The notes: a model not told the origin generated them from the letters alone. A stretch of DNA of 64,000 bases from an uncultured Rhodospirillales bacterium (GCA_902761715.1 CACWLK010000003.1:21498-85497), one strand, 5' to 3'. Shown: positions 26,983 to 59,969, numbered from the stretch's first letter. Program-made: numbers and translations.

Positions 26983-26991
26983 GAGGAGGCT

Positions 26992-38424: not shown

Positions 38425-38438
38425 CTAACTATAGTTAG
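38425..38438. promoter_or_regulatory. Perfect 14-bp palindrome upstream of virB7
   Basis: CTAACTATAGTTAG, 15 nt before the virB7 ATG, in the only sizeable intergenic gap of the distal operon. Confidence 0.2.
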
Positions 38439-38453
38439 CAAAGGAATATTCTT

Positions 38454-38642: not shown

Positions 38643-38665
38643 TACATTCGGAGATATCAAAAAAC

Positions 38666-39397: not shown

Positions 39398-39398
39398 G

Positions 39399-41084
39399 AT
39401 GGATAAAACTATGTTGTCAAAATATGTAAAAATAAGTCTTATCGCTTTGTTTGGAGTTTTCTTCTCAACAAACGCTTTTTCTCAGGCCGCGGTTAACAGC
39501 ATGGATCAAGCGCAAGGCAATGGGCAATATCAACCGATGGATATGACCTATGCCGGTTTCAACTCTTTAGGTATGATGCAAAGCGCATGGCTTGATCCTT
39601 TGCAAAACCTTGGAGAGGGACAAACCAAGCCGGCTTATTCAAAATATTACTGGTCTCCTGATTTGGTTTTGCCCCTGCGTCTGCGTGAGGGGATGATTAC
39701 CATGATTAACTTCCCGGAGTGGGAAATGATTGAGGACATCTATATCGGTGATAACTCTACTTTTGACGGGCAAATTTCCGGTCCTAATACCTTATTGTTG
39801 TATCCCCGCTCAGGTGCCAATGTCGGCGTTGATACCAACGTTATTGTGTTCGGACGCTCCGGCAACCGTTATGTATTTTATGTTCGCAGTGAGGGGGTAA
39901 ATACCGAAAGGCTGACTAATGCAATCGTTGATATTGAAGTAGTCGGCGGTAATAATGGTGTAGGCGGAGCCGGCGCAATGGGAAACGGGGGGTCCGCTTC
40001 CGGAGGAGGACGCATTAATGCAACTTCTTATTACGGCGGAAACGGAAAATCAGTAGATTCGACTTTTACCAAACGCAACCAAAAAAATAATTGGATTGAG
40101 AGTATCCCTCTCGATCCGACTAAATTTCGTTTTGATATTGAAGTTTATGTCCCCAACCCCGATGACGTCGTAATCGCACCGGAAAGAGTTTGGCGTGATG
40201 ACATATTTACTTATATTGATTTAGGTAACAAATCGCTCAATATGACACAGCGTCCGATTGTCAGCCTTATTGTTGAAAGAATGGAAGTTCCTGTCGGTTT
40301 CAGAACCAAGGGGCCTAACAATCGCTTAATTATTGTCGAAGCAATCGGCGACATGGTTTTGCGTAACGGCAAGAGAATTGTATGCCTCAAAATGCGTCGT
40401 TCTGATGATGCCGGCCTTGAAGATGTAAGCTATGCCAAAGATATTACGGATAAAGAATGGGATAGAGGCGACAAAATCCCGTCCGGAGGTCGTGGCACTG
40501 CCGGTGCTGCTTCTTATCCTGATTTCAGCGCCGGAACTGTTAATGGTGCAGCCAACATGCCGACCGGAGAAGTTGATATTAATGTTGATGGTAGCTCAAT
40601 TATTGCTCCGCAATATGGCAACGGTGCCGGCGGAGGCTATGGCAATGGCGCCGGTGGTGCTTATGGTAATGGTGCCGGTGGCGGACAAGGTGGCTATTAT
40701 GGTGCCGGAGGGGATTTTGATTATTCTAAAATGCACAGAATTCAAAATACTCAACAATTTGATCCGGCGGCCAGCAATTTTGCAAACCAGTATCGCTACG
40801 GTTCAGGTTTTAGCGACAGCTCCGGTTCAAATATATCAATTGAGCTTGGTACGGATGCTAATGTCGAAAATCTGGAAAGCTTGTGGGATAATTTATCTGA
40901 TAAACATTCTAAGATTTTGCAAAAATATGATCCGTTCTTCTCGGTTGATGCTCCTGCCGATGGTCAAGGTAAAGAACTGTTCCATTTGCGTGTCGGACCG
41001 GTTAAATCACTCGAAGAAGGTGATGGGGTCTGCAGCAGACTTGGTCGAAACGGTGTATTTTGTAGTGTGGTCAGAACCCAATGA
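39399..41084 (+). CDS. virB9: T4SS outer-membrane core protein VirB9 with Gly-rich linkers and a C-terminal SPOR domain
   Basis: Signal peptide ...NAFSQA. VirB9/CagX N- and C-domains (YYWSPDLVLPLRLREGMITMINFP; FDIEVYVP...IFTYIDLG...IVCLKM). Three YGNGAGG(G/A) repeats. The last 84 aa are SPOR-like (LFHLRVGPVKSLEEGDGVCSRLGRNGVFCSVV). Confidence 0.85.
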   Translation: MDKTMLSKYVKISLIALFGVFFSTNAFSQAAVNSMDQAQGNGQYQPMDMTYAGFNSLGMMQSAWLDPLQNLGEGQTKPAYSKYYWSPDLVLPLRLREGMITMINFPEWEMIEDIYIGDNSTFDGQISGPNTLLLYPRSGANVGVDTNVIVFGRSGNRYVFYVRSEGVNTERLTNAIVDIEVVGGNNGVGGAGAMGNGGSASGGGRINATSYYGGNGKSVDSTFTKRNQKNNWIESIPLDPTKFRFDIEVYVPNPDDVVIAPERVWRDDIFTYIDLGNKSLNMTQRPIVSLIVERMEVPVGFRTKGPNNRLIIVEAIGDMVLRNGKRIVCLKMRRSDDAGLEDVSYAKDITDKEWDRGDKIPSGGRGTAGAASYPDFSAGTVNGAANMPTGEVDINVDGSSIIAPQYGNGAGGGYGNGAGGAYGNGAGGGQGGYYGAGGDFDYSKMHRIQNTQQFDPAASNFANQYRYGSGFSDSSGSNISIELGTDANVENLESLWDNLSDKHSKILQKYDPFFSVDAPADGQGKELFHLRVGPVKSLEEGDGVCSRLGRNGVFCSVVRTQ

Positions 41085-44000: not shown

Positions 44001-45787
44001 CAATAGAAAACGATGACAAGCAAATTGTCGGACGCATACAGTCAAACGGTTTGGTAAAAAGTCCGAGTGGCTCAAAGATAATTGCTCGCATGGTTCGCGG
44101 TGGTCTTGTCGTCGGACAAGGATGCAAAAACATCGGTTACCTTGAAAAAGACGGCATTGTTCGCAAGTCTAATCAGGAAACCGGGTATAAAGTTAACGCT
44201 GACGGTGTCATTATTGATGATAGCGGCAACTATATCGGTGAAGTTGTTACCCCTGGTCCGGTTTTTGATGATACCTGCACCAAAATCGGTGAAGTCGAAA
44301 CCGATGGCATTGTGCGTCAAAACGGCAATTATGTCGGCTGTGTAAATCCGGACGGAACCGTTTTGAACGAAAAAGGTGATATTATCGGCGGTGTTGCTCG
44401 TTCAGGTGTTGCTGTTTCTTACGACGGCAATCTTTTAGGTAAAATTGTTGAGAACGGACTAGTCTTCTCCCCGCAAGGACAACCTGTCGGTTGTGTCGGC
44501 ACTTATGGAGACATTTTTGATAAAAAAGGCGCATATATTGGCAGAGTTTTACAAAATACATATGCCTATGATTTAGAGGGCAATTTTATCGGAATAGTTA
44601 ACAACAACGCTCGTGTTCCGATGAAAGGACAACCCTCGGGTCGTCTGCTTCCCAATAATGTAATTATTGATGAAAACAGCAGAATTATCGGTGTTGTGCT
44701 TCCTGCAAAATCCGCAATTATTGATGCAAGCGGTAAAGTTATGGGGCGCTTGTTCCCTGACGGCAATGTCTATAACGGCAAAGGTGTGTCTATAGGCAAA
44801 ATATACGGAGACGGCAACGGCTTTTACAACCAGTCAAGCGGTTATTCCATTCCTGTCGGACAAGTTGCTGATTTCAGCGGCAAAATTCTCGGCACAGCCG
44901 GATATAACAGTGAGGTAGTCAATCGTTTTGGTGAGCGTCTCGGCAAACTTGATGCCAAAGGCCATTATTTTGACGATAAAGGAACCCTCAAAGGAGGGCT
45001 GATTCGACGCGGCACGGCAATCGGTTATGATGGCTCATTCCTCGGATACAGCTTGTCTGATGGTCGCATTATCAATCTGGACGGCAAAGTTTCGGGGCGT
45101 AGCACTCCTGACGGCAAAGTTATGGACCAAAAGTCAGTTATTGTCGGTGAAATTATCCCCGAAGGCATTGTAACCGATGTTTGGGGAACATATAAAGGGC
45201 ACACCAACTCTATCGGCGATGTCATAGACTTAAACGGCAATAATATTACGGCAATTTTACCGGGAGGCTCTACAGATAAAAATTTGAGTTTGTTAAAACG
45301 TGGCACGGTTATTGATTTTGCCGGCAAAGTAATCGGTTCAGTAATGCCTGACGGTTCGGTTATTGATACATTAAACATAAAAATCGGTCGTGCTTTGTCT
45401 GACGGAAATGTTTTGAACAATTCCGGCAAACTTATCGGAGAAATTGTAGACGGAGATCTGGTAATTAATGGTGAAGACAAAATTGCCGGCTACATTAACT
45501 CTGATGGTTCAATCATTGACAGAACCGGCGCCGTAATCGGTCGAGCCTTGTCAACAGACTTAGCAGTTGATAGCGAAGACGGTATTTTAGGGCGCATATA
45601 CAAAATCGGAGCCACAATTCTCGGCAATACCGGAAAATATATCGGACGCTTGTCAGTTGACGGTAACGTGGTTGACACCGCTAATCGGATTATCGGTTAT
45701 CTAAAGAGCAACGGTTCGTTTATTAATTTAGATAAAAGAGTAGCCGGATATGCCCTACAGGAAGTTGCTAAAAATCGGAGGAACTAA
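41081..45787 (+). CDS. Giant (1568 aa) membrane-anchored 17-residue-repeat protein encoded between virB9 and virB10
   Basis: N-terminal TM (ILAVGITSFVIFILGLYLLF), a ~120-aa beta-rich module, then repeats of the type RMLPDGTVVDNEGNVIG from about aa 225 to the end. ATGA overlap with virB9. Confidence 0.75.
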   Translation: MSKEVLTHSESYIRKTNRIILAVGITSFVIFILGLYLLFSSGDKGSEYTDPSFTDNDDPLQVETSTSDDTGIEFEPIDDGVPPITSTPNPVPLGQVVIGSDAKNVLTIGTNGKATVSIISVQLAEPAFDGFSFEDYCTGKHLRGSETCDITMKWTPVVTGNVQNNFIISWHESNIAKSNSKSEKVPVFGNAVTKEDCNFCDTATGGTSGSGSQATGRKGETLSRTIVGPDGSVIGYADDEGYVYDQKNNVIGRINENGLAVDGDGNIIGVANNRKLVFDPNGNVIGYVNPDGSVVDLNGNVIGRMLPDGTVVDNEGNVIGHAVDMGYVYDDNGNIIGRVMPDGTVVDMNGNVIGRLNEKGEVVDSNGNVIGHVTKTGRVAVDDDGNILGVVMPDGSVVDANGDVIGNVDKDGNVIASPNAPSRSVNRRLVRNADGQVVGYVDENGAVRDFSGNTIGRTRPDGTIVDNEGNELSASGAVLAYNEDGKVIGYVDKDGNVIGEDGKSLGTVSSNGMIIDSEGNIIGRAAPDDDDSSRVKAFAFDENGNVIGYVDDDGVVRDFNGNVIGKVMPDGTIVSGEGTIVGKALNGKKLAYDKDGKLIGYVDDDGTVYDFAGNKIGKMLEDGTIVDENGNTIGLAVQPNKLAYDKDGNLIGYVDENGDVYDFNGNKIGKMLEDGTIVDEEGNVIGRAPERLAYDKDGKLMGYVDNNNDVYDFAGNKIGKMLEDGTIVDENGNTIGHGVLPAELVYDKDGNVIGYVGEDGNVYDFNGNKIGQVLSDGTVIDPDSKIIGKAGPAKADGYRLAYDPKGRVIGYVEDDGTVKDFAGNVIGRMLPDGTIIDANGNIIGRAGSATRQLAYDKDGKVIGYVDENGNVINFNGDAIGKMIPSGKLVNSNGDEIGTVGGFAKMLLDKDNKITGYIGPDGEVFDIEGNAIGYMDADGNITSNTQTVLGRLIQEYMIPVTPQGEVLGTVNNNGTIENDDKQIVGRIQSNGLVKSPSGSKIIARMVRGGLVVGQGCKNIGYLEKDGIVRKSNQETGYKVNADGVIIDDSGNYIGEVVTPGPVFDDTCTKIGEVETDGIVRQNGNYVGCVNPDGTVLNEKGDIIGGVARSGVAVSYDGNLLGKIVENGLVFSPQGQPVGCVGTYGDIFDKKGAYIGRVLQNTYAYDLEGNFIGIVNNNARVPMKGQPSGRLLPNNVIIDENSRIIGVVLPAKSAIIDASGKVMGRLFPDGNVYNGKGVSIGKIYGDGNGFYNQSSGYSIPVGQVADFSGKILGTAGYNSEVVNRFGERLGKLDAKGHYFDDKGTLKGGLIRRGTAIGYDGSFLGYSLSDGRIINLDGKVSGRSTPDGKVMDQKSVIVGEIIPEGIVTDVWGTYKGHTNSIGDVIDLNGNNITAILPGGSTDKNLSLLKRGTVIDFAGKVIGSVMPDGSVIDTLNIKIGRALSDGNVLNNSGKLIGEIVDGDLVINGEDKIAGYINSDGSIIDRTGAVIGRALSTDLAVDSEDGILGRIYKIGATILGNTGKYIGRLSVDGNVVDTANRIIGYLKSNGSFINLDKRVAGYALQEVAKNRRN
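42350..43800 (+). repeat. Tandem ~153-nt (51-aa = 3 x 17) super-repeats inside the 1568-aa gene
   Basis: Units start at about 42851, 43007, 43157, 43313, 43481 and 43640 (KLAYDKDGKLIGYVDDDGTVYDFAGNKIGKMLEDGTIVDENGNTIG...). TTTGCCGGCAACAAAATCGGCAAAATGCTTGAAGA is identical in units 1 and 3. Confidence 0.8.
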
Positions 45788-45789
45788 AG

Positions 45790-48700
45790 TTGAAATCAAA
45801 ACTTAATGGCGGAATAACAAAAAAACTTTGTATTGCTTTAGTAGCACTGTTTGCCTGCATGGAAAACGTATCTGCGCAGGAAATTACTGCCATTGACTTT
45901 AACGGAGACCTGATTGGTAAAGTTATTCCAGATGGTAAAGTTGTCAGCTTTGATAACCGCCTCATCGGCAATATTACCGCCGACAGCTTGATTTTGGATT
46001 CTTCCGGCAAACTTATTGGAGGCGTTGTTCCGCAAGGCGTTGCCATCGGCAATGACAACCGCCTGTTGGGAAAAGTCAGCAACGACGGCACGGTTCGTCT
46101 TTCAACCGGCAAAATCATTGGTAAGGTTCTGCCGAACGGACTTGTGGTTGATGATAAATTTGATGTATTAGGAGCCGTATTGTTTCCCGGTCTTATTTAT
46201 TCTGATGAGGGGCAAACCGTCGGTCGCTTGACCGGTGATGGTGTATATGCCAACCTTCAAGGACAAACTATCGGGTTTGTTTCTCCCGACGGTTACGCAT
46301 ATCGCCGTTCGGGTAACGATTACATTATTGATGGTCGACTGATTTCATCAAAAATGGTCATTGATTCTGTCGGACATTTTGTCGGAAGCATTTCTCCCGG
46401 AGGTAAAATCACTGATTTTGACGGCAAACAAATCGGTCATATAAAAGCCAACGGTTTTGCCTATAATTCTGATAACAAAGTTATCGGTAGCGTTGTTCGT
46501 TCGGGGTATGCCTTTGATATTGCCGGAAAATATATCGGCATTGTTACTTTTAACGGTGAAGTTGTAAATGGTGAAAAAATTGTCGGATATCTGCAAGTAG
46601 ACGGAAGCATCGCAGATTCCAAAGGCACAATCATCGGCTATATGGTCGACATTGCCGCTACTGCAGCAGATAGTTCCGGCAAATATTTGGGACGTATTAT
46701 GCCTGAGGGCAAAATTGCCAAAGGGCGCAACGTTATCGGGCAAATCGGACCATGGAATGTCGTTTATGACGCAGACGGCAAACAACTGGGCAAAATTGTT
46801 TCGTCCGGTCCCGTTTTTGACTATAAAGGTGCATTGAAAGGTCATGCTCTTAAAAACGGGCAGGTTATAATGCCGAGCGGTGCCCCGTTGGGAACAGTAC
46901 GCAATGATTTAGCTTTTAACACCATGGGCAAAGTTGTCGGTGCGGTACTACCGCATAAAGTAGTTATCAGCGAGAACAACCAGGTTGTCGGAGTCAGCGG
47001 TATCAGTTCAAATCTGTCCGTCAGCGACGACCGTCGCATTGTCTCCCCGTTTGGATATGTATACAATTCTGAAGGCGGTATAGCCGGTAATGCAATTTCG
47101 TTAGGTGGCATTTACAGTCTTGGTGGCGTTCCGGTTGGAACAGTTTCTCCTAATGGTGAGTTGATAAATAACGGCACAGCTCAAGGCGGTATTATTACTC
47201 AACATGGATATAATATTACAGAGAACAATACCATTTCCGGCGGAAAAATTAACAACATTTATGCTGTTGGCTCAACCGGAGAAAGTTTAGGTATTTTGGC
47301 CGATGGCAATCAAGTCCTAAACAAGAATTTTAAGCCGATTGGCAAAATTTTGCCTGACGGTAGCATTACCGCATGGTCTGATGGCAACTCTTACATGCCT
47401 TTCAATGGTCGCGGCAGTTCTGCACGAATGGCGGTAGGCTATGACGGCACTGTTTTAGGTACCATTGATAACCAAGGCTTAGTCAGAGACAGCGGAGCCA
47501 CCACAATCGGTAAAGTCAGCTCATCAAATATCATTTTAGATAACTCCGGACTAAGTATCGGTGAGCCGATCAATTTTATGAGCGTAATTAATGATAAATG
47601 TGAATTTACCGGCGTTGTTACCCCTAATGGCGAAGTCAGAAACTACAGAGAAGTTAACATGGGTAAAATTTTACCTAACCGACAGGTGGTTTCCGACAAC
47701 GGCGATATCGTTGGTTACGGTGTCAATAGCGGAAGTGTTGTCGATTTTGGTGGAAAAACAATCGGAACCGTAACCTCAGAGGGCAAAGTTTTGAACTATG
47801 CCGGAGAAAATCTCGGTTGCGTTGATAGTCAAAACCGCATTTACAATGCTCAGCGAGCTCTGATTGGTAAAGTTATACCGATTACTACCGTAATTGACTT
47901 TGACGGCAAAATCATCGGTCGCAGTTTACTTGATGGCAGTGTCGTTGACAGCGGAAATAAAAACATCGGCTTTGTATCTCCCGATGATAGTGTTAACTCT
48001 CAAACATCTACCCCTTTCGGAATGTTGTTTATGTACCGTTACGCATTTAACAACAGCAACCGTCAGATTGGCATTGTCGCTTCTTCCGGTGAAGTACTCG
48101 ACTTTCAGGGTAAAAAAATCGGAACGGTTGATTTTGACGGTAACGTAATTATCAGCGGCAAAAAGAGCGGATATGCCTTGTATGATCTCTACATTTACGA
48201 TAACAGCCATCAGGCAATCGGCAGAATAACTACAGACGGTAGTGTAGTCTCTCTTTCTAACCAAAAGCTCGGACGCTCGGTTCATGGTTTTGCCATTGAT
48301 AGCAAAGGCAAAGTTTTAGGACGTGGAAACCGAGATTTTCATATCCGCGCCAAAGGAAGAGAGATAATCGGTGAACTTCAGCTTAACGGAGCCGTAGTTT
48401 CACGTAGCGGAGAGCAGGTCGGAACCTTGGGGCAAGCCGGCAATATTATTGCCCCCGACGGGGATGTAATTGCCGTTGCTACACCTTTGCAATATTATGA
48501 ACCTGAACAGAGAAAAACTGTATATGATTCGGCGGGCAACCCTATTGGTTACGTTAATGAGGACAACCAAGTTGTTGATGAAAAAGGTAATGTCATCGGC
48601 CAAATAAACAATGACGGCTCGGTAGTTAATCCCGAAGGAGAAGTTATCGGCAATACCAAACTTGATTGGTATACTCCTACAGACAAAAAACAGCCGGGCG

Positions 48701-50094
48701 GAAAACTTCCTGAAGTCGGTAGCCGAAAACTGGATCAGGGCGAATATAAACGCTCTATCAATATTGCTCTTACACCGGATGGCGAATATTTGGGAGAGAT
48801 TACCGAGGACGGTAGCGTTATAGATAAAAATGGTAACAAAATCGGAACAGTTTTGCCGGATGGTCTGGTTGTTGATTCTGAAGGCTCGCTAATCGGCATT
48901 GAAGAAACTGCCGGCGGTACCAAAGATAAAATACCGAGTTCGCCTGGAGGAATTGATAGCTATATTCCTGAAATTATAACGGAAGAAGATCCTCAGAGAG
49001 AACAAGCGAAAAAGGTAGCGCAGTACTATCGCCGTAAAGGCATTGCTGTCGGCCGTATCAGTAGCAATTTTAATAAAGAAGACTTTGAGCAAAAACAAAA
49101 CGACTGGGGGTTGCCAAAAGTCATATCTACTTATCCGGTTGATATGAGCATGATGATGTTGGCAGACAAACCGATACCGGCTGTAATTGCTCGTCCTATT
49201 TATACAGAAGCCGAAGACCAGCCCCCGATAACAGCTTATGTTGAAAGAAATGTTTATACTGAAGACGGGCGTAATATTATTATACCGGCAGGAAGTCATG
49301 TTATTGGGGAACTTGGCGGCGGCGGCGGAAGAGAAAATAATAATAAAGGTGGAACCAATTCTGCTCGTTTGACCATCTCGTGGAAGAGAATTATTTGGCC
49401 AAACGGCGCCATGTTCCAATTGTCCAAAGCAAAATCAGGTGATGCTCAAGGACGAGGCGGAGTTTTGGGATATCTTGATCGCCGTATAGTTCAAACATAT
49501 TCAGCCCCATTAGCTAGTTCGCTTATTACTAATGGCTTAGCTGTTTTGTTTTCTACAAATGATTCTTCTGAAGGAGGAGAAAACAGTACTGAGACCTCAA
49601 AACAACAGGCTATGAATGATGCCCGAGAAGGTTTTTTGAGTGATACTCAACAAATGTTCCAAAGACTGGTGAGCGATTACATGCAAACTCAGCCGGTTGT
49701 GTTTGTTCCGGCCGGTACCCGTGTTACCATTTATCCTAATGTTGATTTGTGGTTGCGCACGGAAGATAATTCCAGTGAAGCAACAGGAAAAGCGAATTTG
49801 CAGAATAGTGACGATAGGTTTACTGATGACCAGCAAGCAGCTGATTATAACGAAAGCGTCAAGAACAAAAAAAGCAATCCTCAGACCACGGTTACCTATG
49901 CACCGAAAGATACGGATGTTAAAACTTCATCTGTTTTGGCTAGCGATAATTCTACAACTCAAAGAGACAGAGTAGGTACACCGCCGCCTCCACCTCCACC
50001 GAGTAGTGGCTTGGTCAATACACAACGACCGAGTGGTAACAACTCGCAGTCTAACAGCAACAATAACAACAATGATGTGCCACAACTTTTTTAG
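45790..50094 (+). CDS. virB10: VirB10 homologue (1434 aa): N-terminal anchor, ~1000 aa of 17-residue repeats, TrbI/VirB10 C-domain, Pro/Asn-rich tail
   Basis: C-domain motifs PIPAVIARPIY, IIIPAGSHVIGE, RLTISWKRIIWPNG and VFVPAGTRVTIYPNVDLW. N-terminal repeats are of the type KVLPNGLVVDDKFDVLG. TTG start lies 2 nt after the upstream stop. Confidence 0.85.
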   Translation: MKSKLNGGITKKLCIALVALFACMENVSAQEITAIDFNGDLIGKVIPDGKVVSFDNRLIGNITADSLILDSSGKLIGGVVPQGVAIGNDNRLLGKVSNDGTVRLSTGKIIGKVLPNGLVVDDKFDVLGAVLFPGLIYSDEGQTVGRLTGDGVYANLQGQTIGFVSPDGYAYRRSGNDYIIDGRLISSKMVIDSVGHFVGSISPGGKITDFDGKQIGHIKANGFAYNSDNKVIGSVVRSGYAFDIAGKYIGIVTFNGEVVNGEKIVGYLQVDGSIADSKGTIIGYMVDIAATAADSSGKYLGRIMPEGKIAKGRNVIGQIGPWNVVYDADGKQLGKIVSSGPVFDYKGALKGHALKNGQVIMPSGAPLGTVRNDLAFNTMGKVVGAVLPHKVVISENNQVVGVSGISSNLSVSDDRRIVSPFGYVYNSEGGIAGNAISLGGIYSLGGVPVGTVSPNGELINNGTAQGGIITQHGYNITENNTISGGKINNIYAVGSTGESLGILADGNQVLNKNFKPIGKILPDGSITAWSDGNSYMPFNGRGSSARMAVGYDGTVLGTIDNQGLVRDSGATTIGKVSSSNIILDNSGLSIGEPINFMSVINDKCEFTGVVTPNGEVRNYREVNMGKILPNRQVVSDNGDIVGYGVNSGSVVDFGGKTIGTVTSEGKVLNYAGENLGCVDSQNRIYNAQRALIGKVIPITTVIDFDGKIIGRSLLDGSVVDSGNKNIGFVSPDDSVNSQTSTPFGMLFMYRYAFNNSNRQIGIVASSGEVLDFQGKKIGTVDFDGNVIISGKKSGYALYDLYIYDNSHQAIGRITTDGSVVSLSNQKLGRSVHGFAIDSKGKVLGRGNRDFHIRAKGREIIGELQLNGAVVSRSGEQVGTLGQAGNIIAPDGDVIAVATPLQYYEPEQRKTVYDSAGNPIGYVNEDNQVVDEKGNVIGQINNDGSVVNPEGEVIGNTKLDWYTPTDKKQPGGKLPEVGSRKLDQGEYKRSINIALTPDGEYLGEITEDGSVIDKNGNKIGTVLPDGLVVDSEGSLIGIEETAGGTKDKIPSSPGGIDSYIPEIITEEDPQREQAKKVAQYYRRKGIAVGRISSNFNKEDFEQKQNDWGLPKVISTYPVDMSMMMLADKPIPAVIARPIYTEAEDQPPITAYVERNVYTEDGRNIIIPAGSHVIGELGGGGGRENNNKGGTNSARLTISWKRIIWPNGAMFQLSKAKSGDAQGRGGVLGYLDRRIVQTYSAPLASSLITNGLAVLFSTNDSSEGGENSTETSKQQAMNDAREGFLSDTQQMFQRLVSDYMQTQPVVFVPAGTRVTIYPNVDLWLRTEDNSSEATGKANLQNSDDRFTDDQQAADYNESVKNKKSNPQTTVTYAPKDTDVKTSSVLASDNSTTQRDRVGTPPPPPPPSSGLVNTQRPSGNNSQSNSNNNNNDVPQLF

Positions 50095-50106
50095 AGGGAG
50101 ATAAAT

Positions 50107-51075
50107 ATGAGTTTTGAAGTATTAGAATCAGTTTTGCGCCCTCTGGCCTATTGGTACAACCAAGAAAACATCGAGGAGGTGGCCATCAATCGTGCCGGTC
50201 AGGTTTGGTTGCGTTTGCGTGGCAAAAGGGCGTATCCGTGGGTAATGTATAAAGATGAAAAACTTACCAAAGAGTATCTTACCGATTTGCTTTATATTGT
50301 TGCTAACACTTACGAGCTTCCGTTTGATCCCATCGGTGGCACTCCGGTAGTTTACGCAACAATCCCCGGCGAACACCGTTTTTCTGCCATTTGCGGCAAA
50401 AACGTTATGTATGACGAAAGCGATATCACCGGAGGTGTTGCCATTGCCATTCGTGTTCATAGTGATGACGTAGCATTCGGATTAGGCGATTACGGCTTAA
50501 AACAAGGTGAACAACTGCACCAGATTAACCCGCTGAAAAATATTAAAGATCCTGATGACCCGTATGAAAGATTGCTACTTAGTATTAAACGAGGAGACCA
50601 CATTTTGGTCAGTGGTGCAACCGCCACCGGTAAAACAACTTTTTTGAACAACCTGCTCAAAATTTTGGATATTCACAAACGTGTTATCACCATCGAGGAT
50701 GCACGCGAGTTGTTGGTTCCGCACCCCAACCGTGTTCATATTGTAATGTCCCGTACCGGACAAACCAACCAGTTTGATTATAAAGGTATTATCGACTTGG
50801 TAGTACGTTTTACTCCTGATGCAATTATCGGCGGTGAGATTTCAACCGGTAACGCCGGTGCATTGTGGGAGCTGATGGGTTCCGGACACGATAACTGCCT
50901 GGCTACTATCCACGCTGAGAGCTCGACTGCAGCATACGAAGCCTTTGTTGACCGTATTTTGCATAGTTATCCCACTCTTGATCGCCGCAAAACAATTGAA
51001 GAAATGCACCACAAGTTACGTGTGGTACAAATCAATCGTGACGGCAACCTGCGTGCGGTTACAGAAGTTACTTAA
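50107..51075 (+). CDS. virB11: T4SS ATPase VirB11
   Basis: 322 aa with Walker A SGATATGKTT, ITIEDARE, Walker B-like IIGGEI and His box LATIHAES. Confidence 0.92.
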   Translation: MSFEVLESVLRPLAYWYNQENIEEVAINRAGQVWLRLRGKRAYPWVMYKDEKLTKEYLTDLLYIVANTYELPFDPIGGTPVVYATIPGEHRFSAICGKNVMYDESDITGGVAIAIRVHSDDVAFGLGDYGLKQGEQLHQINPLKNIKDPDDPYERLLLSIKRGDHILVSGATATGKTTFLNNLLKILDIHKRVITIEDARELLVPHPNRVHIVMSRTGQTNQFDYKGIIDLVVRFTPDAIIGGEISTGNAGALWELMGSGHDNCLATIHAESSTAAYEAFVDRILHSYPTLDRRKTIEEMHHKLRVVQINRDGNLRAVTEVT

Positions 51076-55794: not shown

Positions 55795-56766
55795 TTACAA
55801 ATATATAGCAACAACTTTGTGCAAGTTGCTCAAATCGTTATTATCAATTTCGATTTTTTCGTCCGGATTCCATCTGATGCCATACAATTTGCCGTTATCA
55901 TCTTCACGAATGCTGATGATTTTTACCTCATTCGGTTTAATGTAATAAACGGCAATATCGCCAACGCTGACAACTTCTTGCGGGTCAATCAGCAATATTG
56001 AACGAGCCGGCAACAAACTTCCCAAACGACGTGAGCACAAGTTTAGACCATAGGCATCTTTTTTGCCGAACAAAGAACTCGGGCGAGCCACGGTCTTAGT
56101 TTCATTTTCGGTATCAATCAGCACATTTCCGTCTTTTCCGGCAACACCGTACACTGGAACTTTCTGATTGTCTCTCGGAGCCGCCTCAAATGCCGAAATT
56201 GCACCGCGCGGATTCGAAAGAAGCTTATACTTTGAATCATTACGTTGAATGATTTCTTCAAGCATACCTTTTTCTTCAAGTTTTTTAATGCTTGATTTTA
56301 ACTCGTCAACCGACATTGACAATGCTTTTGCGATGTTTTTCATTTCTTTGTCGGAAACCTCACGTTGTCCCATTTCAATGCGGTGGTATACGGACAATGT
56401 CATATCGGCGCTTTCGGCGACTTCAATCAAAGTCAGATTCTTTTCATTACGGATTTGTCTTAATCCGGCACCTAAGGTCTTAAGACCGGCTTTTTCATTA
56501 ATTTTGTTTCTTCTTTCTTGTTCTCTACGCCAAGACAACACAACATCTTCTTGTGAGTTTTGCTCATTTACGAACAAATCCTGCATCGGGCAATCCAACA
56601 ATTCAGCCACGCGAACCAATTGTTCTTGATCAATTCTGCGATATCCTTTCTCTATTTTTGAAATAGCCGAAAGGCTGACACCCAAATGGTCTGCCAACTC
56701 CTGCATGGAGCGACCGCGTAATCTTCTGTACATTCTGATTTGATTTGGGAAAATAATTTCTTCCAT
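55795..56766 (-). CDS. XRE-family regulator with two HTH domains and a LexA/CI (S24)-like C-terminal domain
   Basis: HTH 1: IRMYRRLRGRSMQELADHLGVSLSAISKIEKG. HTH 2: LRQIRNEKNLTLIEVAESADMTLSVYHRIEMG. C-terminal beta domain: VPVYGVAG...VSVGDIAVYY...KVVAI. SD is GAGGTGG. Confidence 0.8.
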   Translation of the reverse strand: MEEIIFPNQIRMYRRLRGRSMQELADHLGVSLSAISKIEKGYRRIDQEQLVRVAELLDCPMQDLFVNEQNSQEDVVLSWRREQERRNKINEKAGLKTLGAGLRQIRNEKNLTLIEVAESADMTLSVYHRIEMGQREVSDKEMKNIAKALSMSVDELKSSIKKLEEKGMLEEIIQRNDSKYKLLSNPRGAISAFEAAPRDNQKVPVYGVAGKDGNVLIDTENETKTVARPSSLFGKKDAYGLNLCSRRLGSLLPARSILLIDPQEVVSVGDIAVYYIKPNEVKIISIREDDNGKLYGIRWNPDEKIEIDNNDLSNLHKVVAIYL

Positions 56767-56920: not shown

Positions 56921-59900
56921 CTATTTGAACTCAGGTAGGGTATAAGCTTTATTTCCCTTGTCTCTTACTTGTTCCGCAAAGCGTTTCATATCTTCGCTGC
57001 TGAACATAATATCTTCTCGCTTAATGTTTGACGCTAAACTTCCGTCCATAAATACCGGACGAGCCGTTTGATCAGAGTATTCTTTTGCAATAGAATATTG
57101 GTGCCGTACCGTATCCCCGTTTATTGCCGTTTTACGCTGGACGATTCCGTCCGAAGCATAGGCAACTCCCTTTCGATTTTTGTCAACGGTAATCACGGTT
57201 GTCATTGCTCTATCGCCTTTGAAAGTAACATTAAAGCTGGTCATGGTTCCATCTTCATTTATCTGCTCTACTTCAATAAAGTTATTGCCCTGAGCATCAA
57301 CACCGTTTCTAACGTTTCGTGTCTGGAAACGACCATCAATCTTACCGCCTTGATACTGATTCATGCGGGCCTTAACCAACATGTCAACAACCATCAGCTG
57401 TTTCTCTTTTTCAGAAAGCAATGAGCTTTGGACAAACGCATTTATAGCCGCAGTATCTACTCTTCCTTTAGCATCAATCATATGCTGCATTGCCTTTGAA
57501 TATGTAAACGACGTTCCGACAACTTGTCCGTCGGCATTATAAATCATGGTTGAAGACCCGAAGTCATCGCTTCTCGTAACCGTTCTTGAGCCATCGCTGT
57601 TTACTCTTGTCTTGGTTTCCACAATATTTCCGGTTTCGTCTCTATTGTAGCTTCGGTAATTGTTGTGAGTCTTAACCTTTACTTTATTCAGACCTTTGCT
57701 GACCAGTTTACCGATTCCTGATTTTCCGGCTTTGTTTTCAAGTTTGTCAACCGCCGCATTCCAAGCCGTTCCTATTTTAGGTCTACTGCTTTCATACATT
57801 TGGTTACCTTCATCATCAAGCATCGCTGTTCCGTCAGCATTTGTTGCCGCTATTCCGTACGAGTTAAATGCAGCTCCTTTCAACCCCCGATATCCGTGCT
57901 TAAGTCCTTCATAGCCAATTCCTCCGGCATATTTTAAGCCTTTGACGGCAGTCTTGCCGATTGGTTTGGCAACTCTGTTTTTGAAAGCGGCATTGGCGGC
58001 AGCTCCGACCGGTGAGCCGATTGGCGTCATGCTGGAAGCAACTCCGCTTCCGCCCCAAATATTACCGGCAAAATCTTTGGCAAATTTTTGAATTTCGCTT
58101 AATGTCGCCCAACCGAGGAAGAGTACAAACATCATTTTCAGAGCAGGGACCATAAACCAGGTAATGGCACGAATACCTAATTTTACGTCCTCTGATAGTA
58201 TTTCGTCTTTATACTGTCCTGCGATGGTTGCCAAAATCATAATCACGAGCGACAAGAATATAAAGGTTAGTACTGCATGAACAAATGTTCCGAATACTTT
58301 GCTTAAATATTGCGAAGTTGCCTTAAATGCAAACGCTCCCAATGCAACCGGCAACAATGCGATTGAAATTGCCATCTTTAGCAAACTGTCAATCAGCAGG
58401 AACGGATACGACAATAACATCACAAAGGCAAAGATAAAGAAAGCAAAAGCTGTTACTAAATAAGCCATATTCGGGATAAATACCAAAATTGTATTTTCCC
58501 AAGCCAGACAGTGGCACATACGTCCCATTGCCAATATTTCAATTATCCGATCTTGTACGACCTTTATGGTGCACTGGATTCCATTACCCAATTCCGGTGA
58601 CAAACCGCCCACATCAGAACCGACTACACTCGGGATAGGACCGGCAGGAGCCACAGTATTAAGAGCTAAATCGACAGCTCCGCCGACCACCTTATCAATA
58701 ACACCCGCTCCCACATTTGCTTTTTGCATAGGCTCAATATTGCATTCGGCAGGGTTGCCGCCTCCGGCTAACCCACCACCGATTTGTGCAATTTTCAGCC
58801 CTGTTGAAAATACCGGATCAAGTGTCATTGACAGCATATCTTCTAACGGCCCCTGCAACAACAATACAATAATTAAAACCTTGAATGCCTGGTTTAGCAA
58901 TGTTTTGACCAATATTCTCGGTTCGCGTGTTTCAAAATGAGAAACAAAGCGCAAAATTATAAACGCCAACCAAAGTGCAAACCCGATAACCACCACTTTA
59001 ACCATTGCCGGAGCAAAAATATCGTATACCGATTTTGCCATTATGCTGGCAGTATTAAACAGGATTCTGAATGGAGTGCAGAATATACAACCGGCCTGCA
59101 TGTAGTTAGCCAAAATTTCCTCAAACTTACAAGGTCCGCTTTGCGGAATTTTGGTATCCTCGGCTGTTGTGGCTATTTCACCGCCACCGGAACCATCCTC
59201 TCCTTTGTATACATTATCCGTATTTTCAGGCGGAACATTTCCACCGGTAAAACAGTTCATGCGGTTTACCTGTTTATTTTGCTGACAACTGCAGGCATAG
59301 GCATCAAAGCCTTTATTCATCGGGTCAAGCAAGACTCCGCCTTCTCTGATTTCAATATGCATGTGACACGGATAACCGTTCAAGTTACCGGCTTCGCCGA
59401 TTTTTTGCCCTCTGGAATAAGAACCGGCAGGCTTAAACGCTTGGTTGTGGTAAAATGTATATTCAAATGTTTTGCCACACATTTGACATACAAAGTGCAT
59501 ACCATTCTTTTTGGCAACAGTAATTCTTCCGTCACATGGAGCATAAATCGGTGTTCCGCACGCCGCACTGTAATCATATCCTTGGTGATTTTTTGCCGAC
59601 TTTGGTGGAATAGGGCATCGTGCCGAACTCACATATCTTCCGCCTGACTTGTTATGTTCGCACCATTCATGACCGCGAGCACACATCTCAGAAGATACAC
59701 CATAAGCGGCCTTTCCACTCATTTGAAAAGGCGTGGTGTCCATACAAGAATTTGAGTTCATCTTCCTTAGGCAATCTCCTCCGCCTCTTTTTTGCGGATA
59801 GCTGCACTCCGGTAATTTACCCGAAATTTTTAAGTATGGAGAATCATAAGTAGCACTTTTTTGTGCCGCAGCATCTGTAGCAAAGCAGGCCAAAACTGAT

Positions 59901-59953
59901 AACACTACTGTCATCATGCCAAAGATTTTTATGTTTCTCATCATACTAGTCAT
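56921..59953 (-). CDS. virB6: M23 (LytM) metallopeptidase domain fused to a VirB6/TrbL-like polytopic domain and a ~350-aa hydrophilic C-terminal extension
   Basis: Signal peptide ...ATDAAAQ. M23 motifs HQGYD (HxxxD), GTPIYAPCDGRI and HMHIE (HxH). At least 6 TM helices. The paralogue motif GFALWLAFIILRFVSHF is shared with the two genes upstream. Confidence 0.7.
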   Translation of the reverse strand: MTSMMRNIKIFGMMTVVLSVLACFATDAAAQKSATYDSPYLKISGKLPECSYPQKRGGGDCLRKMNSNSCMDTTPFQMSGKAAYGVSSEMCARGHEWCEHNKSGGRYVSSARCPIPPKSAKNHQGYDYSAACGTPIYAPCDGRITVAKKNGMHFVCQMCGKTFEYTFYHNQAFKPAGSYSRGQKIGEAGNLNGYPCHMHIEIREGGVLLDPMNKGFDAYACSCQQNKQVNRMNCFTGGNVPPENTDNVYKGEDGSGGGEIATTAEDTKIPQSGPCKFEEILANYMQAGCIFCTPFRILFNTASIMAKSVYDIFAPAMVKVVVIGFALWLAFIILRFVSHFETREPRILVKTLLNQAFKVLIIVLLLQGPLEDMLSMTLDPVFSTGLKIAQIGGGLAGGGNPAECNIEPMQKANVGAGVIDKVVGGAVDLALNTVAPAGPIPSVVGSDVGGLSPELGNGIQCTIKVVQDRIIEILAMGRMCHCLAWENTILVFIPNMAYLVTAFAFFIFAFVMLLSYPFLLIDSLLKMAISIALLPVALGAFAFKATSQYLSKVFGTFVHAVLTFIFLSLVIMILATIAGQYKDEILSEDVKLGIRAITWFMVPALKMMFVLFLGWATLSEIQKFAKDFAGNIWGGSGVASSMTPIGSPVGAAANAAFKNRVAKPIGKTAVKGLKYAGGIGYEGLKHGYRGLKGAAFNSYGIAATNADGTAMLDDEGNQMYESSRPKIGTAWNAAVDKLENKAGKSGIGKLVSKGLNKVKVKTHNNYRSYNRDETGNIVETKTRVNSDGSRTVTRSDDFGSSTMIYNADGQVVGTSFTYSKAMQHMIDAKGRVDTAAINAFVQSSLLSEKEKQLMVVDMLVKARMNQYQGGKIDGRFQTRNVRNGVDAQGNNFIEVEQINEDGTMTSFNVTFKGDRAMTTVITVDKNRKGVAYASDGIVQRKTAINGDTVRHQYSIAKEYSDQTARPVFMDGSLASNIKREDIMFSSEDMKRFAEQVRDKGNKAYTLPEFK

Positions 59954-59969
59954 TGGTGTACCTCTTTTG

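What the first reader, a model, noticed from the sequence alone, without database searches (positions are those of the whole stretch)
56921..59953. M23 peptidoglycan endopeptidase fused to a VirB6/TrbL channel protein: possible built-in replacement for VirB1
A single 1010-aa ORF encodes four parts. First is a signal peptide and a Cys-rich segment. Second is a complete LytM/M23 catalytic core (HQGYD, GTPIYAPCDGRI, HMHIE; nt ~59309-59611). Third is a polytopic VirB6/TrbL-like domain that is clearly paralogous to the two upstream genes. Fourth is a ~350-aa hydrophilic tail. T4SSs normally breach peptidoglycan with a separate SLT-type lytic transglycosylase (VirB1), which is missing here. Covalent coupling of an endopeptidase to the inner-membrane channel subunit would localise wall remodelling exactly at the assembly site. 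I do not know of this architecture having been described.
Basis: partly seen in the sequence, partly recalled or inferred. Interest (0 to 1): 0.7.

Follow-up and report, generated by a model that had tools for sequence, protein, structure and literature searches.

The report
Wall-cutting enzyme fused to VirB6
One inner-membrane channel subunit (VirB6) of a type IV secretion system in uncultured gut Alphaproteobacteria carries an apparently active cell-wall endopeptidase on its periplasmic end, and its relatives carry other wall-cutting enzymes at the same spot, so this machine probably brings its own tool for opening the cell wall.

Summary
ORF 56921-59953(-) is one intact 1010-aa gene. It has a signal peptide, a Cys-rich periplasmic domain with a complete M23 core, a VirB6 membrane domain and a folded tail of about 390 aa.

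- **M23:** Pfam E=1e-11, above the cutoff. All five active-site residues are invariant in 21 homologues.
- **VirB6:** the Pfam TrbL hit is weak (18.6 bits), but Foldseek matches R388 TrwI/VirB6 with probability 1.0. The ORF is also paralogous to the upstream genes.
- **Not an assembly artefact:** the fusion recurs in 31 of 33 independent gut alphaproteobacterial MAG loci. It is always the fourth gene of a four-gene VirB6 array.

The main new result comes from an exhaustive search (367 representatives at E<=1e-30). Positional orthologues carry M23+SLT, SGNH+M23+SLT or a VgrG3-like wall hydrolase at the same N-terminal position. Two lineages deleted the module independently.

This supports a swappable, VirB1-like wall-remodelling cassette tethered to VirB6. 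That is comparative inference only; no activity was measured. I found no prior description, and NCBI names a member only "M23 family metallopeptidase". I rate it a new variant of a known kind, interest about 0.6.

The parts
56921..59953 (-). Complete gene for the M23-VirB6 fusion protein ('VirB6-d'), 1010 aa plus stop codon
   Evidence: Searches show an intact ORF. Full-length homologues at 31-96% identity appear.
59961..59966 (-). Shine-Dalgarno-like AAGAGG, 7 nt upstream of the ATG. The stop codon of the upstream paralogue is at 59970-59972.
   Evidence: sequence read directly.
59864..59953 (-). Signal peptide, aa 1-30 (hydrophobic core aa 7-30, ...DAAA|Q)
   Evidence: Hydropathy. M23-less relatives keep this segment.
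59603..59863 (-). Cys-rich N-terminal subdomain, aa 31-117 (invariant C50, C61, C70, C91). Role unknown; possibly regulatory or wall-binding.
   Evidence: The Ncys sub-profile is found in most family members.
59309..59602 (-). M23/LytM metallopeptidase catalytic core, aa 118-215 (H123, D127, H169, H197, H199)
   Evidence: Pfam E=1e-11. The five residues are invariant. Residue-level alignment to ShyA and NGO1686. Foldseek matches LytM with TM-score 0.60.
59132..59308 (-). Post-M23 Cys cluster (C221, C223, C234) and a disordered, poorly conserved linker, aa 236-274. Inferred to be a flexible tether.
   Evidence: pLDDT below 50 for aa 236-274. Mean pairwise identity 0.17.
58094..59131 (-). VirB6/TrbL membrane domain, aa 275-620. 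It contains the conserved GCxFCxPF pre-TM helix, TM1-2, a periplasmic loop and three further membrane helices.
   Evidence: Pfam TrbL 18.6 bits. 14 of 21 homologues hit TrbL. Foldseek matches TrwI/VirB6 with probability 1.0. Paralogy.
58475..58852 (-). Large periplasmic loop between TM2 and TM3, aa 368-493 (invariant C404, C461, C482). It corresponds to the VirB6 'P2' loop.
57854..58093 (-). Strongly basic, disordered linker after the last TM, aa 621-700 (family mean net charge about +8)
56924..57853 (-). Conserved C-terminal tail, aa 701-1010. It is Cys-free and has a confidently folded beta-rich domain (aa ~760-1000). Probably cytoplasmic; function unknown.
   Evidence: pLDDT 85-92. No confident PDB match. 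Cys counts. Positive-inside analysis.
59970..62372 (-). VirB6 paralogue 'c', 800 aa, with signal peptide and tail but no hydrolase domain
   Evidence: BLASTP E=2e-22 against the fusion protein. TrbL 16.3 bits. TMD sub-profile 88 bits.
62387..63697 (-). VirB6 paralogue 'b', 436 aa, with a lipobox-like N-terminus (LISAC)
   Evidence: TrbL 26.0 bits against a 25.9-bit cutoff. E=9e-9. N-terminus read.
63713..64000 (-). C-terminal 95 aa of VirB6 paralogue 'a'. The gene runs off the window end.
   Evidence: The reading frame is open to the window end. It is 67% identical to the C-terminus of L001 gene a, E=3.7e-39.
55795..56766 (-). Double-HTH (Xre-type) regulator found downstream of the VirB6 array in the loci inspected
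   Evidence: Pfam HTH_3, two stretches, E=5.5e-28. A 323-327 aa ORF sits at the same place in L019, L025 and L028.
26245..51075 (+). Rest of the T4SS, convergent with the VirB6 array: VirB2 x3 (26245-27438), VirB3-like (27577-27867), VirB4 (27857-30289), four unassigned ORFs (30324-37595), VirB8 x2 (37609-39397), VirB9+SPOR (39399-41084), a 1568-aa beta-flower protein (41081-45787), a 1434-aa VirB10 with beta-flower repeats (45790-50094) and VirB11 (50107-51075)
   Evidence: Pfam hits. ORFs.

Best explanation
The gene encodes the fourth and largest of four tandem VirB6 paralogues of a chromosomal, VirB/VirD4-type (P-type) T4SS in uncultured gut Alphaproteobacteria.

**Proposed mechanism**
1. 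After Sec export and signal-peptide cleavage, a disulfide-stabilised domain of about 200 aa sits in the periplasm. It contains a catalytically competent M23 zinc endopeptidase.
2. A disordered linker of about 40 residues tethers that domain to the N-terminal periplasmic helix of the VirB6 membrane domain.
3. In the solved R388 machine, VirB6 forms the base of the stalk (TrwJ/VirB5-TrwI/VirB6 complex, PDB entry titles). The stalk has to pass through the peptidoglycan. The tether therefore confines peptide cross-link cleavage to the place where the machine is being built.
4. The result is a local opening in the sacculus. This is the job normally assigned to the soluble lytic transglycosylase VirB1.
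5. The N-terminal position of this VirB6 family behaves as an exchangeable wall-hydrolase cassette: M23 alone, M23+SLT, SGNH+M23+SLT, or a VgrG3-like hydrolase.
6. The basic linker and the folded C-terminal beta-domain probably face the cytoplasm. Their role is unknown.

**Shown:** the architecture, the conservation, the invariant active site, the export signals, the VirB6 fold, the T4SS context and the cassette swapping.

**Inferred:** enzymatic activity, the substrate (the cell's own peptidoglycan), a role in assembly, and the sidedness of the tail.
For: **Architecture**
- Intact ORF with a ribosome-binding site.
- M23 above the Pfam cutoff.
- H123, D127, H169, H197 and H199 are invariant in 21 homologues at 34-85% identity. 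They align to the ShyA and NGO1686 motifs.
- The best sequence and structure matches are peptidoglycan endopeptidases of Gram-negative bacteria: ShyA, Csd3-like, TagE and LytM.
- The M23 region is conserved about as well as the periplasmic loop of the VirB6 domain (0.48 against 0.50 mean pairwise identity; membrane helices 0.56-0.59), so it is under purifying selection.

**Location**
- Signal peptide, 13-21 Cys in the N-domain, and 3-5 Cys in the TM2-TM3 loop.

**VirB6 identity**
- Foldseek match to TrwI/VirB6 with probability 1.0 and TM-score 0.58-0.66.
- TrbL hits in 14 of 21 members.
- Paralogy to neighbouring TrbL-positive genes.
- VirB2/3/4/8/9/10/11 genes adjacent.

**Not an artefact**
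- The same fusion occupies the fourth array position in 31 of 33 MAG loci from human, ruminant, chicken and rabbit gut.

**Cassette swapping**
- P0110 and P0139 carry M23+SLT (SLT E=1e-17 and 1.5e-20).
- P0090 carries GDSL/SGNH+M23+SLT.
- P0083 and P0055 carry a VgrG3-like C-terminal domain (E=7e-18 and 8e-7).
- All of these sit N-terminal to the same VirB6 domain.
- The M23+SLT proteins are the fourth gene of an orthologous four-gene VirB6 array.
- 115 of 156 relatives with an N-region longer than 80 aa carry M23.

**Other**
- No SLT or other hydrolase appears elsewhere in the window.
- No immunity-like gene lies adjacent; the downstream gene is a double-HTH regulator in the window and in the three loci inspected.
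- Two independent clean deletions of the module parallel the reported non-essentiality of VirB1 (review PMC12857230).
Against: - No biochemical or genetic data exist. The organisms are uncultured.
- The TrbL sequence hit for this ORF is below the Pfam cutoff, and a PDB sequence-profile search finds no VirB6.
- The model is only moderately confident overall (mean pLDDT 68, pTM 0.37).
- Absence of a separate VirB1 is established only for 64 kb. In Rickettsia the VirB1 candidate is encoded away from the other rvh genes (PMC2653234).
- Many relatives have non-enzymatic coiled-coil or Cys-rich N-regions, and two lineages deleted the M23. The module is therefore not obligatory for the machine.
- A VgrG3-like domain in some relatives is a fold best known as an antibacterial effector. 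That leaves room for an outward-directed role.
- The M23 might be auto-inhibited or act on a protein substrate.
Confidence: 0.6

Rival explanations
1. The hydrolase is directed outward. The N-terminal hydrolase module acts on the wall of a target or recipient bacterium. It would be either a cleaved-off effector or a tip or penetration device carried by a structural subunit, comparable to 'evolved' VgrG3 in T6SS or the lysins carried on phage tails. The T4SS would then be a bacteria-killing or cell-to-cell machine of a gut competitor.
For: - Some positional orthologues carry a T6SS_VgrG3-like_C domain.
- The PDB profile hits include phage internal or ejected proteins with M23 domains, 9k2v_E and 9m7n_A.
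- A disordered, non-conserved linker could be a processing site.
- No VirD4 or relaxase lies in the window.
- Published proposals hold that basal rvh-type T4SSs kill other bacteria (PMC11077975).
- From general knowledge, not tested here: the F-plasmid extended VirB6 homologue TraG is thought to contact the recipient cell.
Against: - The domain has a Sec signal peptide and is N-terminal to a polytopic membrane anchor. It is therefore exposed first to the producer's own wall.
- No conserved small immunity-type gene is adjacent. The downstream neighbour is a double-HTH regulator in the window and in the three loci inspected, and flanks differ in L034-L036.
- There is no XVIPCD-like or other recognisable T4SS effector signal.
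- M23+SLT(+SGNH) tandems resemble the assembly hydrolases PrgK and TraG(pIP501) rather than single-domain toxins.
Confidence: 0.15
2. The N-domain is a wall anchor or regulator rather than a cutter. It would bind peptidoglycan to position or stabilise the VirB6 stalk base, or activate other hydrolases in the way the degenerate LytM factors EnvC and NlpD do. Alternatively it would be a housekeeping endopeptidase merely co-translated with VirB6, with no specific role in opening the wall.
For: - LytM domains with non-catalytic roles are known. EnvC appears among the weak PDB hits.
- The LytM domain of the T4SS hydrolase PrgK is a structural match (8s0u).
- VirB9 of the same system carries a SPOR wall-binding domain. 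Wall anchoring therefore seems to matter to this machine.
- The module can be lost.
Against: - All three zinc ligands and both catalytic histidines are invariant across 21 sequences down to 34% identity. Degenerate LytM factors have lost them (established knowledge).
- Replacement by, or pairing with, catalytic SLT, SGNH and VgrG3-like hydrolase domains in orthologues argues that the selected property is wall cleavage.
Confidence: 0.12
3. The fusion is an artefact. A frameshift or misassembly would have joined a separate M23 gene to a VirB6 gene.
For: Only the general prior that metagenomic assemblies contain errors, plus the non-conserved linker between the two halves.
Against: - The same continuous ORF is found in about 40 protein clusters and 31 of 33 loci from independent studies and hosts.
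- More than 100 representatives in the exhaustive search carry it.
- The reading frame is conserved through a linker that varies in length.
Confidence: 0.01

Closest known systems
VirB1-type specialised lytic transglycosylases (A. tumefaciens VirB1, IncP TrbN, F P19)
   Same: They are wall-degrading enzymes dedicated to a Gram-negative T4SS and exported to the periplasm. They are thought to open the sacculus locally for channel assembly and are often non-essential (PMC12857230). Some orthologues of the present protein contain an SLT domain.
   Different: VirB1 is a separate, soluble protein with a lysozyme-like SLT fold that cuts glycan strands. The present domain is a zinc M23 endopeptidase that cuts peptide links, and it is covalently part of VirB6. 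No SLT was detected in this ORF.
PrgK (pCF10) and TraG (pIP501), the membrane-anchored multidomain hydrolases of Gram-positive T4SSs
   Same: They are membrane-tethered, modular hydrolase cassettes (LytM + SLT + CHAP, or SLT + CHAP) belonging to a T4SS. The LytM domain of PrgK is a structural match to the present M23 (8s0u). Relatives here have M23+SLT tandems.
   Different: Those proteins have a single N-terminal anchor helix and are distinct from the VirB6-like channel protein. They serve thick Gram-positive walls. Here the anchor is the VirB6 subunit itself, in a diderm organism.
Extended VirB6 proteins: Rickettsiales RvhB6a-e, and F-plasmid TraG (the latter from general knowledge)
   Same: They are multiple tandem VirB6 paralogues of 670-1150 aa with large hydrophilic extensions flanking a VirB6/TrbL domain of about 400 aa (PMC2653234). 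The present locus has four tandem paralogues of 436 to about 1010 aa, plus duplicated VirB8 and no recognisable VirB5.
   Different: No enzymatic domain has been reported in RvhB6 extensions, and Rickettsia has a separate RvhB1. The host here is not labelled Rickettsiales. Duplication of VirB4 and VirB9 was not seen in the window. A phylogenetic link to rvh was not tested.
ShyA / MepM / Csd3-type M23 DD-endopeptidases
   Same: They are the best sequence and structure matches, with identical zinc-binding and catalytic motifs. They are periplasmic peptidoglycan cross-link cleavers of Gram-negative bacteria.
   Different: Those are soluble or single-anchor housekeeping or cell-shape enzymes with LysM or inhibitory domains. 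NCBIfam scores here are far below the equivalog cutoffs (25 against 341 bits for MepM). None is fused to a secretion-system subunit.
FlgJ of enteric flagella and VgrG3 of the Vibrio T6SS (structural-subunit-hydrolase fusions; from general knowledge)
   Same: The design principle is the same: a structural component of a trans-envelope machine is covalently fused to a peptidoglycan hydrolase. A VgrG3-like C-terminal domain occurs in orthologues P0055 and P0083.
   Different: They belong to different machines and different folds. FlgJ's enzyme acts on the cell's own wall and VgrG3's on the prey wall. Which of the two applies here is the open question.

Membership tests
Peptidase family M23 (LytM-type zinc endopeptidases) | Sequence match to PF01551 above the curated cutoff | tested here: met
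   45.3 bits against a 28.7-bit cutoff, E=1e-11, aa 122-211. 21 of 21 family members hit.
Peptidase family M23 (LytM-type zinc endopeptidases) | HxxxD and HxH zinc-ligand motifs plus the additional catalytic His | tested here: met
   H123, D127, H169, H197 and H199 are invariant. They align with the HNGTDF / LHL / HLHYE motifs of ShyA and NGO1686.
Peptidase family M23 (LytM-type zinc endopeptidases) | LytM beta-sheet fold | tested here: met
   Foldseek matches LytM 2b13 and 2b0p with TM-score 0.60-0.61 relative to the target and probability 1.0. Domain pLDDT is 80-90.
Peptidase family M23 (LytM-type zinc endopeptidases) | Zinc-dependent cleavage of peptidoglycan peptide bonds | not testable with these tools
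   Needs a zymogram or muropeptide analysis.
VirB6/TrbL T4SS inner-membrane subunit | Sequence match to PF04610 above the curated cutoff | tested here: inconclusive
   This ORF scores 18.6 bits against a 25.9-bit cutoff. 14 of 21 homologues hit at E<=0.01, best 7.7e-7. Paralogue b scores 26.0 bits. A PDB sequence-profile search finds no VirB6.
VirB6/TrbL T4SS inner-membrane subunit | Structural similarity to a solved VirB6 | tested here: met
   TrwI/VirB6 of R388: 8rt9_F E=3.8e-3, probability 1.00; 7o3v_J TM-score 0.66 relative to the target; about 345 aligned columns.
VirB6/TrbL T4SS inner-membrane subunit | Polytopic membrane protein with a large periplasmic loop after TM2 | tested here: met
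   Hydropathy and AlphaFold helices show TM 309-335 and 346-367, a loop at 368-493 with conserved Cys, and then three long helices.
VirB6/TrbL T4SS inner-membrane subunit | Encoded with other T4SS core genes | tested here: met
   VirB2 x3, VirB3-like, VirB4, VirB8 x2, VirB9, VirB10 and VirB11 lie within 31 kb.
VirB1 / specialised lytic transglycosylase | SLT (lysozyme-like) domain with a catalytic Glu | tested here: not met
   No PF01464 hit in this ORF. SLT is present only in some orthologues: P0110, P0139 and P0090. The protein is therefore a functional analogue at most, not a member.
Rickettsiales vir homologue (rvh) T4SS | Multicopy VirB6 with extensions | tested here: met
   Four tandem paralogues in all 33 loci. 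Hallmark list from PMC11077975.
Rickettsiales vir homologue (rvh) T4SS | Duplicated VirB8, VirB9 and VirB4, and no VirB5 | tested here: inconclusive
   VirB8 x2 is seen. Only one VirB9 and one VirB4 are in the window. No VirB5 was detected, but four ORFs remain unassigned. The rest of the genome was not available.
Rickettsiales vir homologue (rvh) T4SS | Rickettsiales host or phylogenetic affinity of the Rvh proteins | not tested
   Record titles say uncultured Azospirillum, Rhodospirillales or Alphaproteobacteria gut MAGs. No phylogeny was run.

The most novel reading that the evidence does not exclude
VirB6-d would be an 'evolved' structural subunit in the sense of T6SS VgrG3. Its exchangeable N-terminal hydrolase cassette (M23, SLT, SGNH esterase, VgrG3-like) would be released or extruded through the stalk to breach the wall of a neighbouring bacterium. 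The gut alphaproteobacterial, rvh-like T4SS would then be a contact-dependent wall-piercing or killing device whose toxin is built into the channel protein.
Probability: 0.12. Interest if true: 0.85.

Novelty: new variant of a known kind. Interest (0 to 1): 0.6.

Why it matters
**The open questions it touches.** How envelope-spanning machines get through the peptidoglycan mesh is only partly understood for T4SSs. VirB1 is soluble and often dispensable, and it is unclear how its action is confined to the assembly site. VirB6 is also the least understood core subunit.

**What this family offers.**
- It is a large, conserved family: at least 367 representatives at 50% clustering.
- The wall hydrolase is covalently tethered to VirB6, and the cassette has been swapped between M23, SLT, SGNH and VgrG3-like enzymes. 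This is a natural experiment arguing that the wall is opened from the VirB6 stalk base.
- It supplies defined constructs (N-domain, linker, point mutants) to test that idea.

**Other consequences.**
- It shows rvh-like gene-family expansion (VirB6 x4, VirB8 x2, VirB2 x3) in common but uncultured gut Alphaproteobacteria, whose T4SS function is unknown.
- It exposes an annotation gap. NCBI names a member only "M23 family metallopeptidase", so the VirB6 half is missed.

Tried and rejected
- **PDB sequence-profile search with the family alignment.** It found only M23 entries and no VirB6. VirB6 homology had to be shown by fold and paralogy.
- **Frameshift or misassembly.** Rejected on conservation of the continuous ORF across independent assemblies.
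- **Degenerate, EnvC-like LytM.** Rejected because all catalytic residues are invariant.
- **A separate M23 gene in the two M23-less loci L019 and L021.** tblastn found none. These are in-frame deletions that keep the signal peptide, and they are independent of each other.
- **Similarity of the tail to the neighbouring beta-flower, VirB10 or other unknown proteins, or to paralogue tails.** Nothing significant. Foldseek gave no confident match for the tail.
- **A hidden VirB1 or other hydrolase among ten unannotated ORFs at E<=1.** None found.
- **The same fusion on sequenced plasmids.** Across 72,556 records, no hit covers more than 22% of the M23+VirB6 query.
- **Literature searches** (VirB6+M23; RF32+T4SS; VirB6+peptidoglycan hydrolase+fusion; TrbL+metallopeptidase; gut 'Azospirillum sp.'+T4SS). 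No description of a VirB6-hydrolase fusion (reviews read).
- **Cys content as a clue to tail sidedness.** Uninformative on its own. The positive-inside rule and the AlphaFold helix count were used instead.

Full report
**1. The observation**

The ORF at 56921..59953 on the minus strand is intact. It is 1010 aa, starts with ATG and has an AAGAGG ribosome-binding site 7 nt upstream. The upstream gene's stop codon lies 16 nt before the start.

Pfam gives Peptidase_M23 at aa 122-211 with E=1e-11 and 45.3 bits, against a cutoff of 28.7. It gives TrbL/VirB6 at aa 494-615 with only 18.6 bits, against a cutoff of 25.9. NCBIfam's best matches are the wall DD-endopeptidases MepM, Pgp3, ShyC and ShyA, all far below equivalog level.

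The two upstream genes are paralogues. The 800-aa gene matches at E=2e-22 over aa 275-578, and the 436-aa gene at E=9e-9. The 436-aa gene just reaches the TrbL cutoff at 26.0 bits.

**2. Anatomy**

Hydropathy, the AlphaFold model and the family alignment give the following layout.

| Residues | Feature |
|---|---|
| 1-30 | Signal peptide |
| 31-117 | Cys-rich subdomain |
| 118-215 | M23 core |
| 216-235 | Short Cys cluster |
| 236-274 | Disordered linker, 17% mean identity |
| ~275-308 | Conserved 'GCxFCxPF' amphipathic helix |
| 309-335, 346-367 | Two transmembrane helices |
| 368-493 | Loop with invariant C404, C461 and C482 |
| 496-532(-541), 544-585, 601-634 | Three long membrane helices |
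| 621-700 | Very basic disordered stretch, family mean net charge about +8 |
| 701-1010 | Tail; aa ~760-1000 are a beta-rich domain, pLDDT 85-92 |

The N-domain holds 13-21 Cys in every homologue, the loop holds 3-5, and the tail holds essentially none.

Signal peptide, cysteine pattern and charge distribution place the N-domain and the loop in the periplasm. The loop net charges are -1.9, +1.4 and -1.8, followed by +8 after the last helix. With moderate confidence they place the tail in the cytoplasm. From my own knowledge, this is the topology mapped experimentally for A. tumefaciens VirB6.

**3. Domain identities**

*M23.* H123, D127, H169, H197 and H199 are invariant in 21 sequences at 34-85% identity. 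They align residue for residue with the HxGxD, xH and HxH motifs of ShyA and Neisseria NGO1686. The profile search against the PDB is led by ShyA (2.4e-13), TagE, NGO1686 and Csd3-type enzymes. Foldseek gives LytM a TM-score of 0.60.

*VirB6.* Foldseek matches the TrwI/VirB6 chains of the R388 T4SS stalk complex. 8rt9_F scores E=3.8e-3 with probability 1.00, and 7o3v_J has a TM-score of 0.66 relative to the target over about 345 columns. TrbL is hit by 14 of 21 family members, best E=7.7e-7.

*Tail.* It has no confident structural or sequence relative.

**4. Context**

The window is chromosomal. It has rpsA, cmk, an rRNA methyltransferase and a DnaJ-like gene at 1-12 kb. A type IVb (bundlin/TCP-like) pilus cluster lies at 12.4-24.3 kb. 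A T4SS lies on the plus strand from 26.2 to 51.1 kb:

- VirB2 x3, VirB3-like and VirB4
- four unassigned ORFs
- VirB8 x2
- VirB9 with a SPOR domain
- a 1568-aa beta-flower/DUF3659/RHS-repeat protein
- a 1434-aa VirB10 with beta-flower repeats
- VirB11

The VirB6 array is convergent with this cluster on the minus strand.

No VirD4, relaxase, VirB5 or SLT/VirB1 was detected in the window, and the ten unannotated ORFs I rescanned gave none of these even at E<=1.

**5. Conservation and hosts**

A word-index search found 42 clusters, nearly all full length, at 31-96% identity.

A scan of one genome per species found 33 loci. All are in uncultured gut Alphaproteobacteria MAGs from human, ruminant, deer, chicken and rabbit. 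Their labels are 'uncultured Azospirillum sp.', 'Azospirillum sp. 51_20', 'Candidatus Scatocola faecipullorum', and Rhodospirillales or Alphaproteobacteria bacterium.

Every one of the 31 loci that is not cut off upstream of the gene (L022 and L030 are) has four tandem VirB6-like genes:

| Gene | Size |
|---|---|
| a | ~750-1180 aa |
| b | ~430-470 aa |
| c | ~460-910 aa |
| d | ~960-1300 aa |

The hydrolase is always on d. In the window, gene a runs off the end. Its last 95 residues (63713-64000) are 67% identical to the C-terminus of L001 gene a.

This rules out a frameshift artefact. NCBI's name for a member (MBQ8785397.1) is just 'M23 family metallopeptidase'.

**6. The wider family and cassette swapping (the key result)**

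An exhaustive HMMER search of 1.84 billion representatives gave 367 proteins at E<=1e-30. The top 150 all scored at least 278 bits, far above paralogues a-c.

Local classification and jackhmmer show M23 in 115 of 156 relatives that have an N-region longer than 80 aa. The rest were examined with Pfam:

| Protein | N-terminal domains, then VirB6 domain |
|---|---|
| P0110 | M23 101-229, SLT 357-456 (1e-17), VirB6 from 531 |
| P0139 | M23, SLT 334-457 (1.5e-20), VirB6 from 542 |
| P0090 | GDSL/SGNH 95-199, M23 424-528, SLT 657-709, VirB6 from 887 |
| P0083 | T6SS_VgrG3-like_C 67-276 (7e-18), no M23 |
| P0055 | T6SS_VgrG3-like_C 90-291 (8e-7), no M23 |

Others have coiled-coil or Cys-rich non-enzymatic N-regions.

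The M23+SLT proteins (P0110, P0112) are the fourth gene of a four-gene array with the same profile-score ranking (a > c > b, with d highest). They are therefore positional orthologues.

Two M23-less genes, P0040 (L019) and P0041 (L021), are 73% and 62% identical to M23-bearing relatives. They are only 56% identical to each other, and both keep the signal peptide. These are two independent in-frame deletions.

**7. Mechanism**

The simplest reading is that the N-terminus of VirB6-d is a periplasmic, tethered peptidoglycan-remodelling cassette. In the R388 structure, VirB6 forms the stalk complex together with VirB5 (PDB entry titles). An enzyme on a linker of about 40 residues at the periplasmic N-terminus of VirB6 would be held where the stalk must cross the sacculus.

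An M23 endopeptidase would cut peptide cross-links. In relatives this is combined with SLT (glycan cleavage) and an SGNH esterase, which I infer might de-O-acetylate the wall. The combination mirrors the multidomain Gram-positive T4SS hydrolases PrgK and TraG (review PMC12857230).

Loss of the module in two lineages fits the reported non-essentiality of VirB1.

Shown: the architecture, the active-site conservation, export, the VirB6 fold, the context and the swapping. Inferred: activity, the substrate, a role in assembly, and the tail's location and function.

**8. Rival readings**

- *Outward-directed hydrolase acting on a target cell.* VgrG3-like orthologues, M23-bearing ejected phage proteins among the PDB hits, and the lack of VirD4 or relaxase nearby all favour it. 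Against it stand the Sec signal, the polytopic anchor and the lack of an adjacent immunity gene. I give it about 0.15.
- *Non-catalytic anchor or regulator.* Disfavoured by the invariant catalytic residues and by substitution with other catalytic hydrolases. About 0.12.
- *Artefact.* Rejected.

**9. Comparison with known systems**

The protein is a true M23 member by sequence, motifs and fold. It is a VirB6 by fold, topology, paralogy and context, although its own Pfam score is sub-threshold. It is not a VirB1-family member because it has no SLT domain. It is at most a functional analogue.

The locus shares some rvh hallmarks listed in PMC11077975 and PMC2653234: multicopy extended VirB6, duplicated VirB8 and no detectable VirB5. 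Duplication of VirB4 and VirB9 was not seen, and the hosts are not labelled Rickettsiales. No phylogeny was run.

No paper in the searchable library describes a hydrolase fused to VirB6. No PLSDB plasmid carries such a fusion.

**10. Verdict**

This is a new variant of a known kind: a secretion-system-dedicated wall hydrolase, here built into VirB6 as an exchangeable cassette. Interest is about 0.6.

Noticed in passing
window 39399-41084 (+): The VirB9/CagX homologue carries a C-terminal SPOR peptidoglycan-binding domain (aa 480-559, 24.8 bits against a 21-bit cutoff). This is a second link between this T4SS and the cell wall, and an unusual VirB9 architecture.
   Followed up: no
window 41081-50094 (+): A 1568-aa protein is packed with beta-flower, DUF3659 and RHS-like repeats (Bflower_2 E=4e-116). 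It sits between VirB9 and a giant 1434-aa VirB10, whose first ~1100 residues also carry beta-flower repeats ahead of the TrbI domain. This VirB10 has a signal-peptide-like N-terminus and no obvious TM helix. Some VirB6-d relatives have weak beta-flower hits in their tails.
   Followed up: partly
window 26245-27438 (+), 37609-39397 (+), 56921-64000 (-): T4SS gene families are expanded: three tandem VirB2 pilins, two VirB8, four VirB6 and no recognisable VirB5. This resembles the Rickettsiales rvh hallmarks but occurs in gut Alphaproteobacteria MAGs. The literature calls rvh a Rickettsiales signature. Shared ancestry versus convergence was not tested.
   Followed up: partly
window 12474-24332 (-): A complete type IVb (bundlin/PilS/TCP-like) pilus cluster lies immediately next to the T4SS. 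It has three pilin-like genes, T2SS-F and T2SS-E, a PilO-like gene, a secretin and TcpQ, with a sulfatase-family membrane enzyme (13098-14978) embedded in it.
   Followed up: no
window 55795-56766 (-): A 323-aa protein with two Xre-type HTH domains also hits the RstR and Wolbachia Wmk (male-killing) family models weakly. A 323-327 aa ORF sits in the same place downstream of the VirB6 array in L019, L025 and L028, so it may be the system's regulator.
   Followed up: no
window 62387-63697 (-): VirB6 paralogue b begins with a lipobox-like signal (…VLISAC…). It may be a lipoprotein-anchored VirB6, which would be unusual.
   Followed up: no
L034 4139-14269; L035 234-9593; L036: In the lineage with M23+SLT VirB6-d, the four-gene VirB6 array is preceded by a conserved 61-aa membrane protein. 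It is not adjacent to other T4SS genes; its neighbours include flagellin/FlbT and a tRNA synthetase. The scattered layout is reminiscent of Rickettsiales.
   Followed up: partly
L023, L025, L026, L027 (gene d, 1243-1305 aa): These VirB6-d versions have an extra insert of about 300 aa between the M23 and the membrane domain (the TMD starts at aa 564-624). For the one tested (L025), Pfam shows neither SLT nor any other known domain there, and its M23 match is split in two stretches.
   Followed up: partly
window 53658-55745, 53053-53592, 51777-53081, 51106-51777 (-) and 30324-37595 (+): Eight ORFs inside the T4SS region (179-1281 aa) have no Pfam or NCBIfam match even at E<=1. ORFs of similar size and order to the four on the minus strand follow the HTH gene in L019, L025 and L028. 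They are candidates for missing parts (VirB5, VirB7, coupling protein) or effectors.
   Followed up: no
window 1-2499 (+): A three-part fusion, cut at the window start: an MFS transporter fragment, an acyltransferase and an AMP-binding enzyme. From general knowledge it looks like an LplT-Aas lysophospholipid recycling fusion. It is ordinary but not otherwise examined.
   Followed up: no
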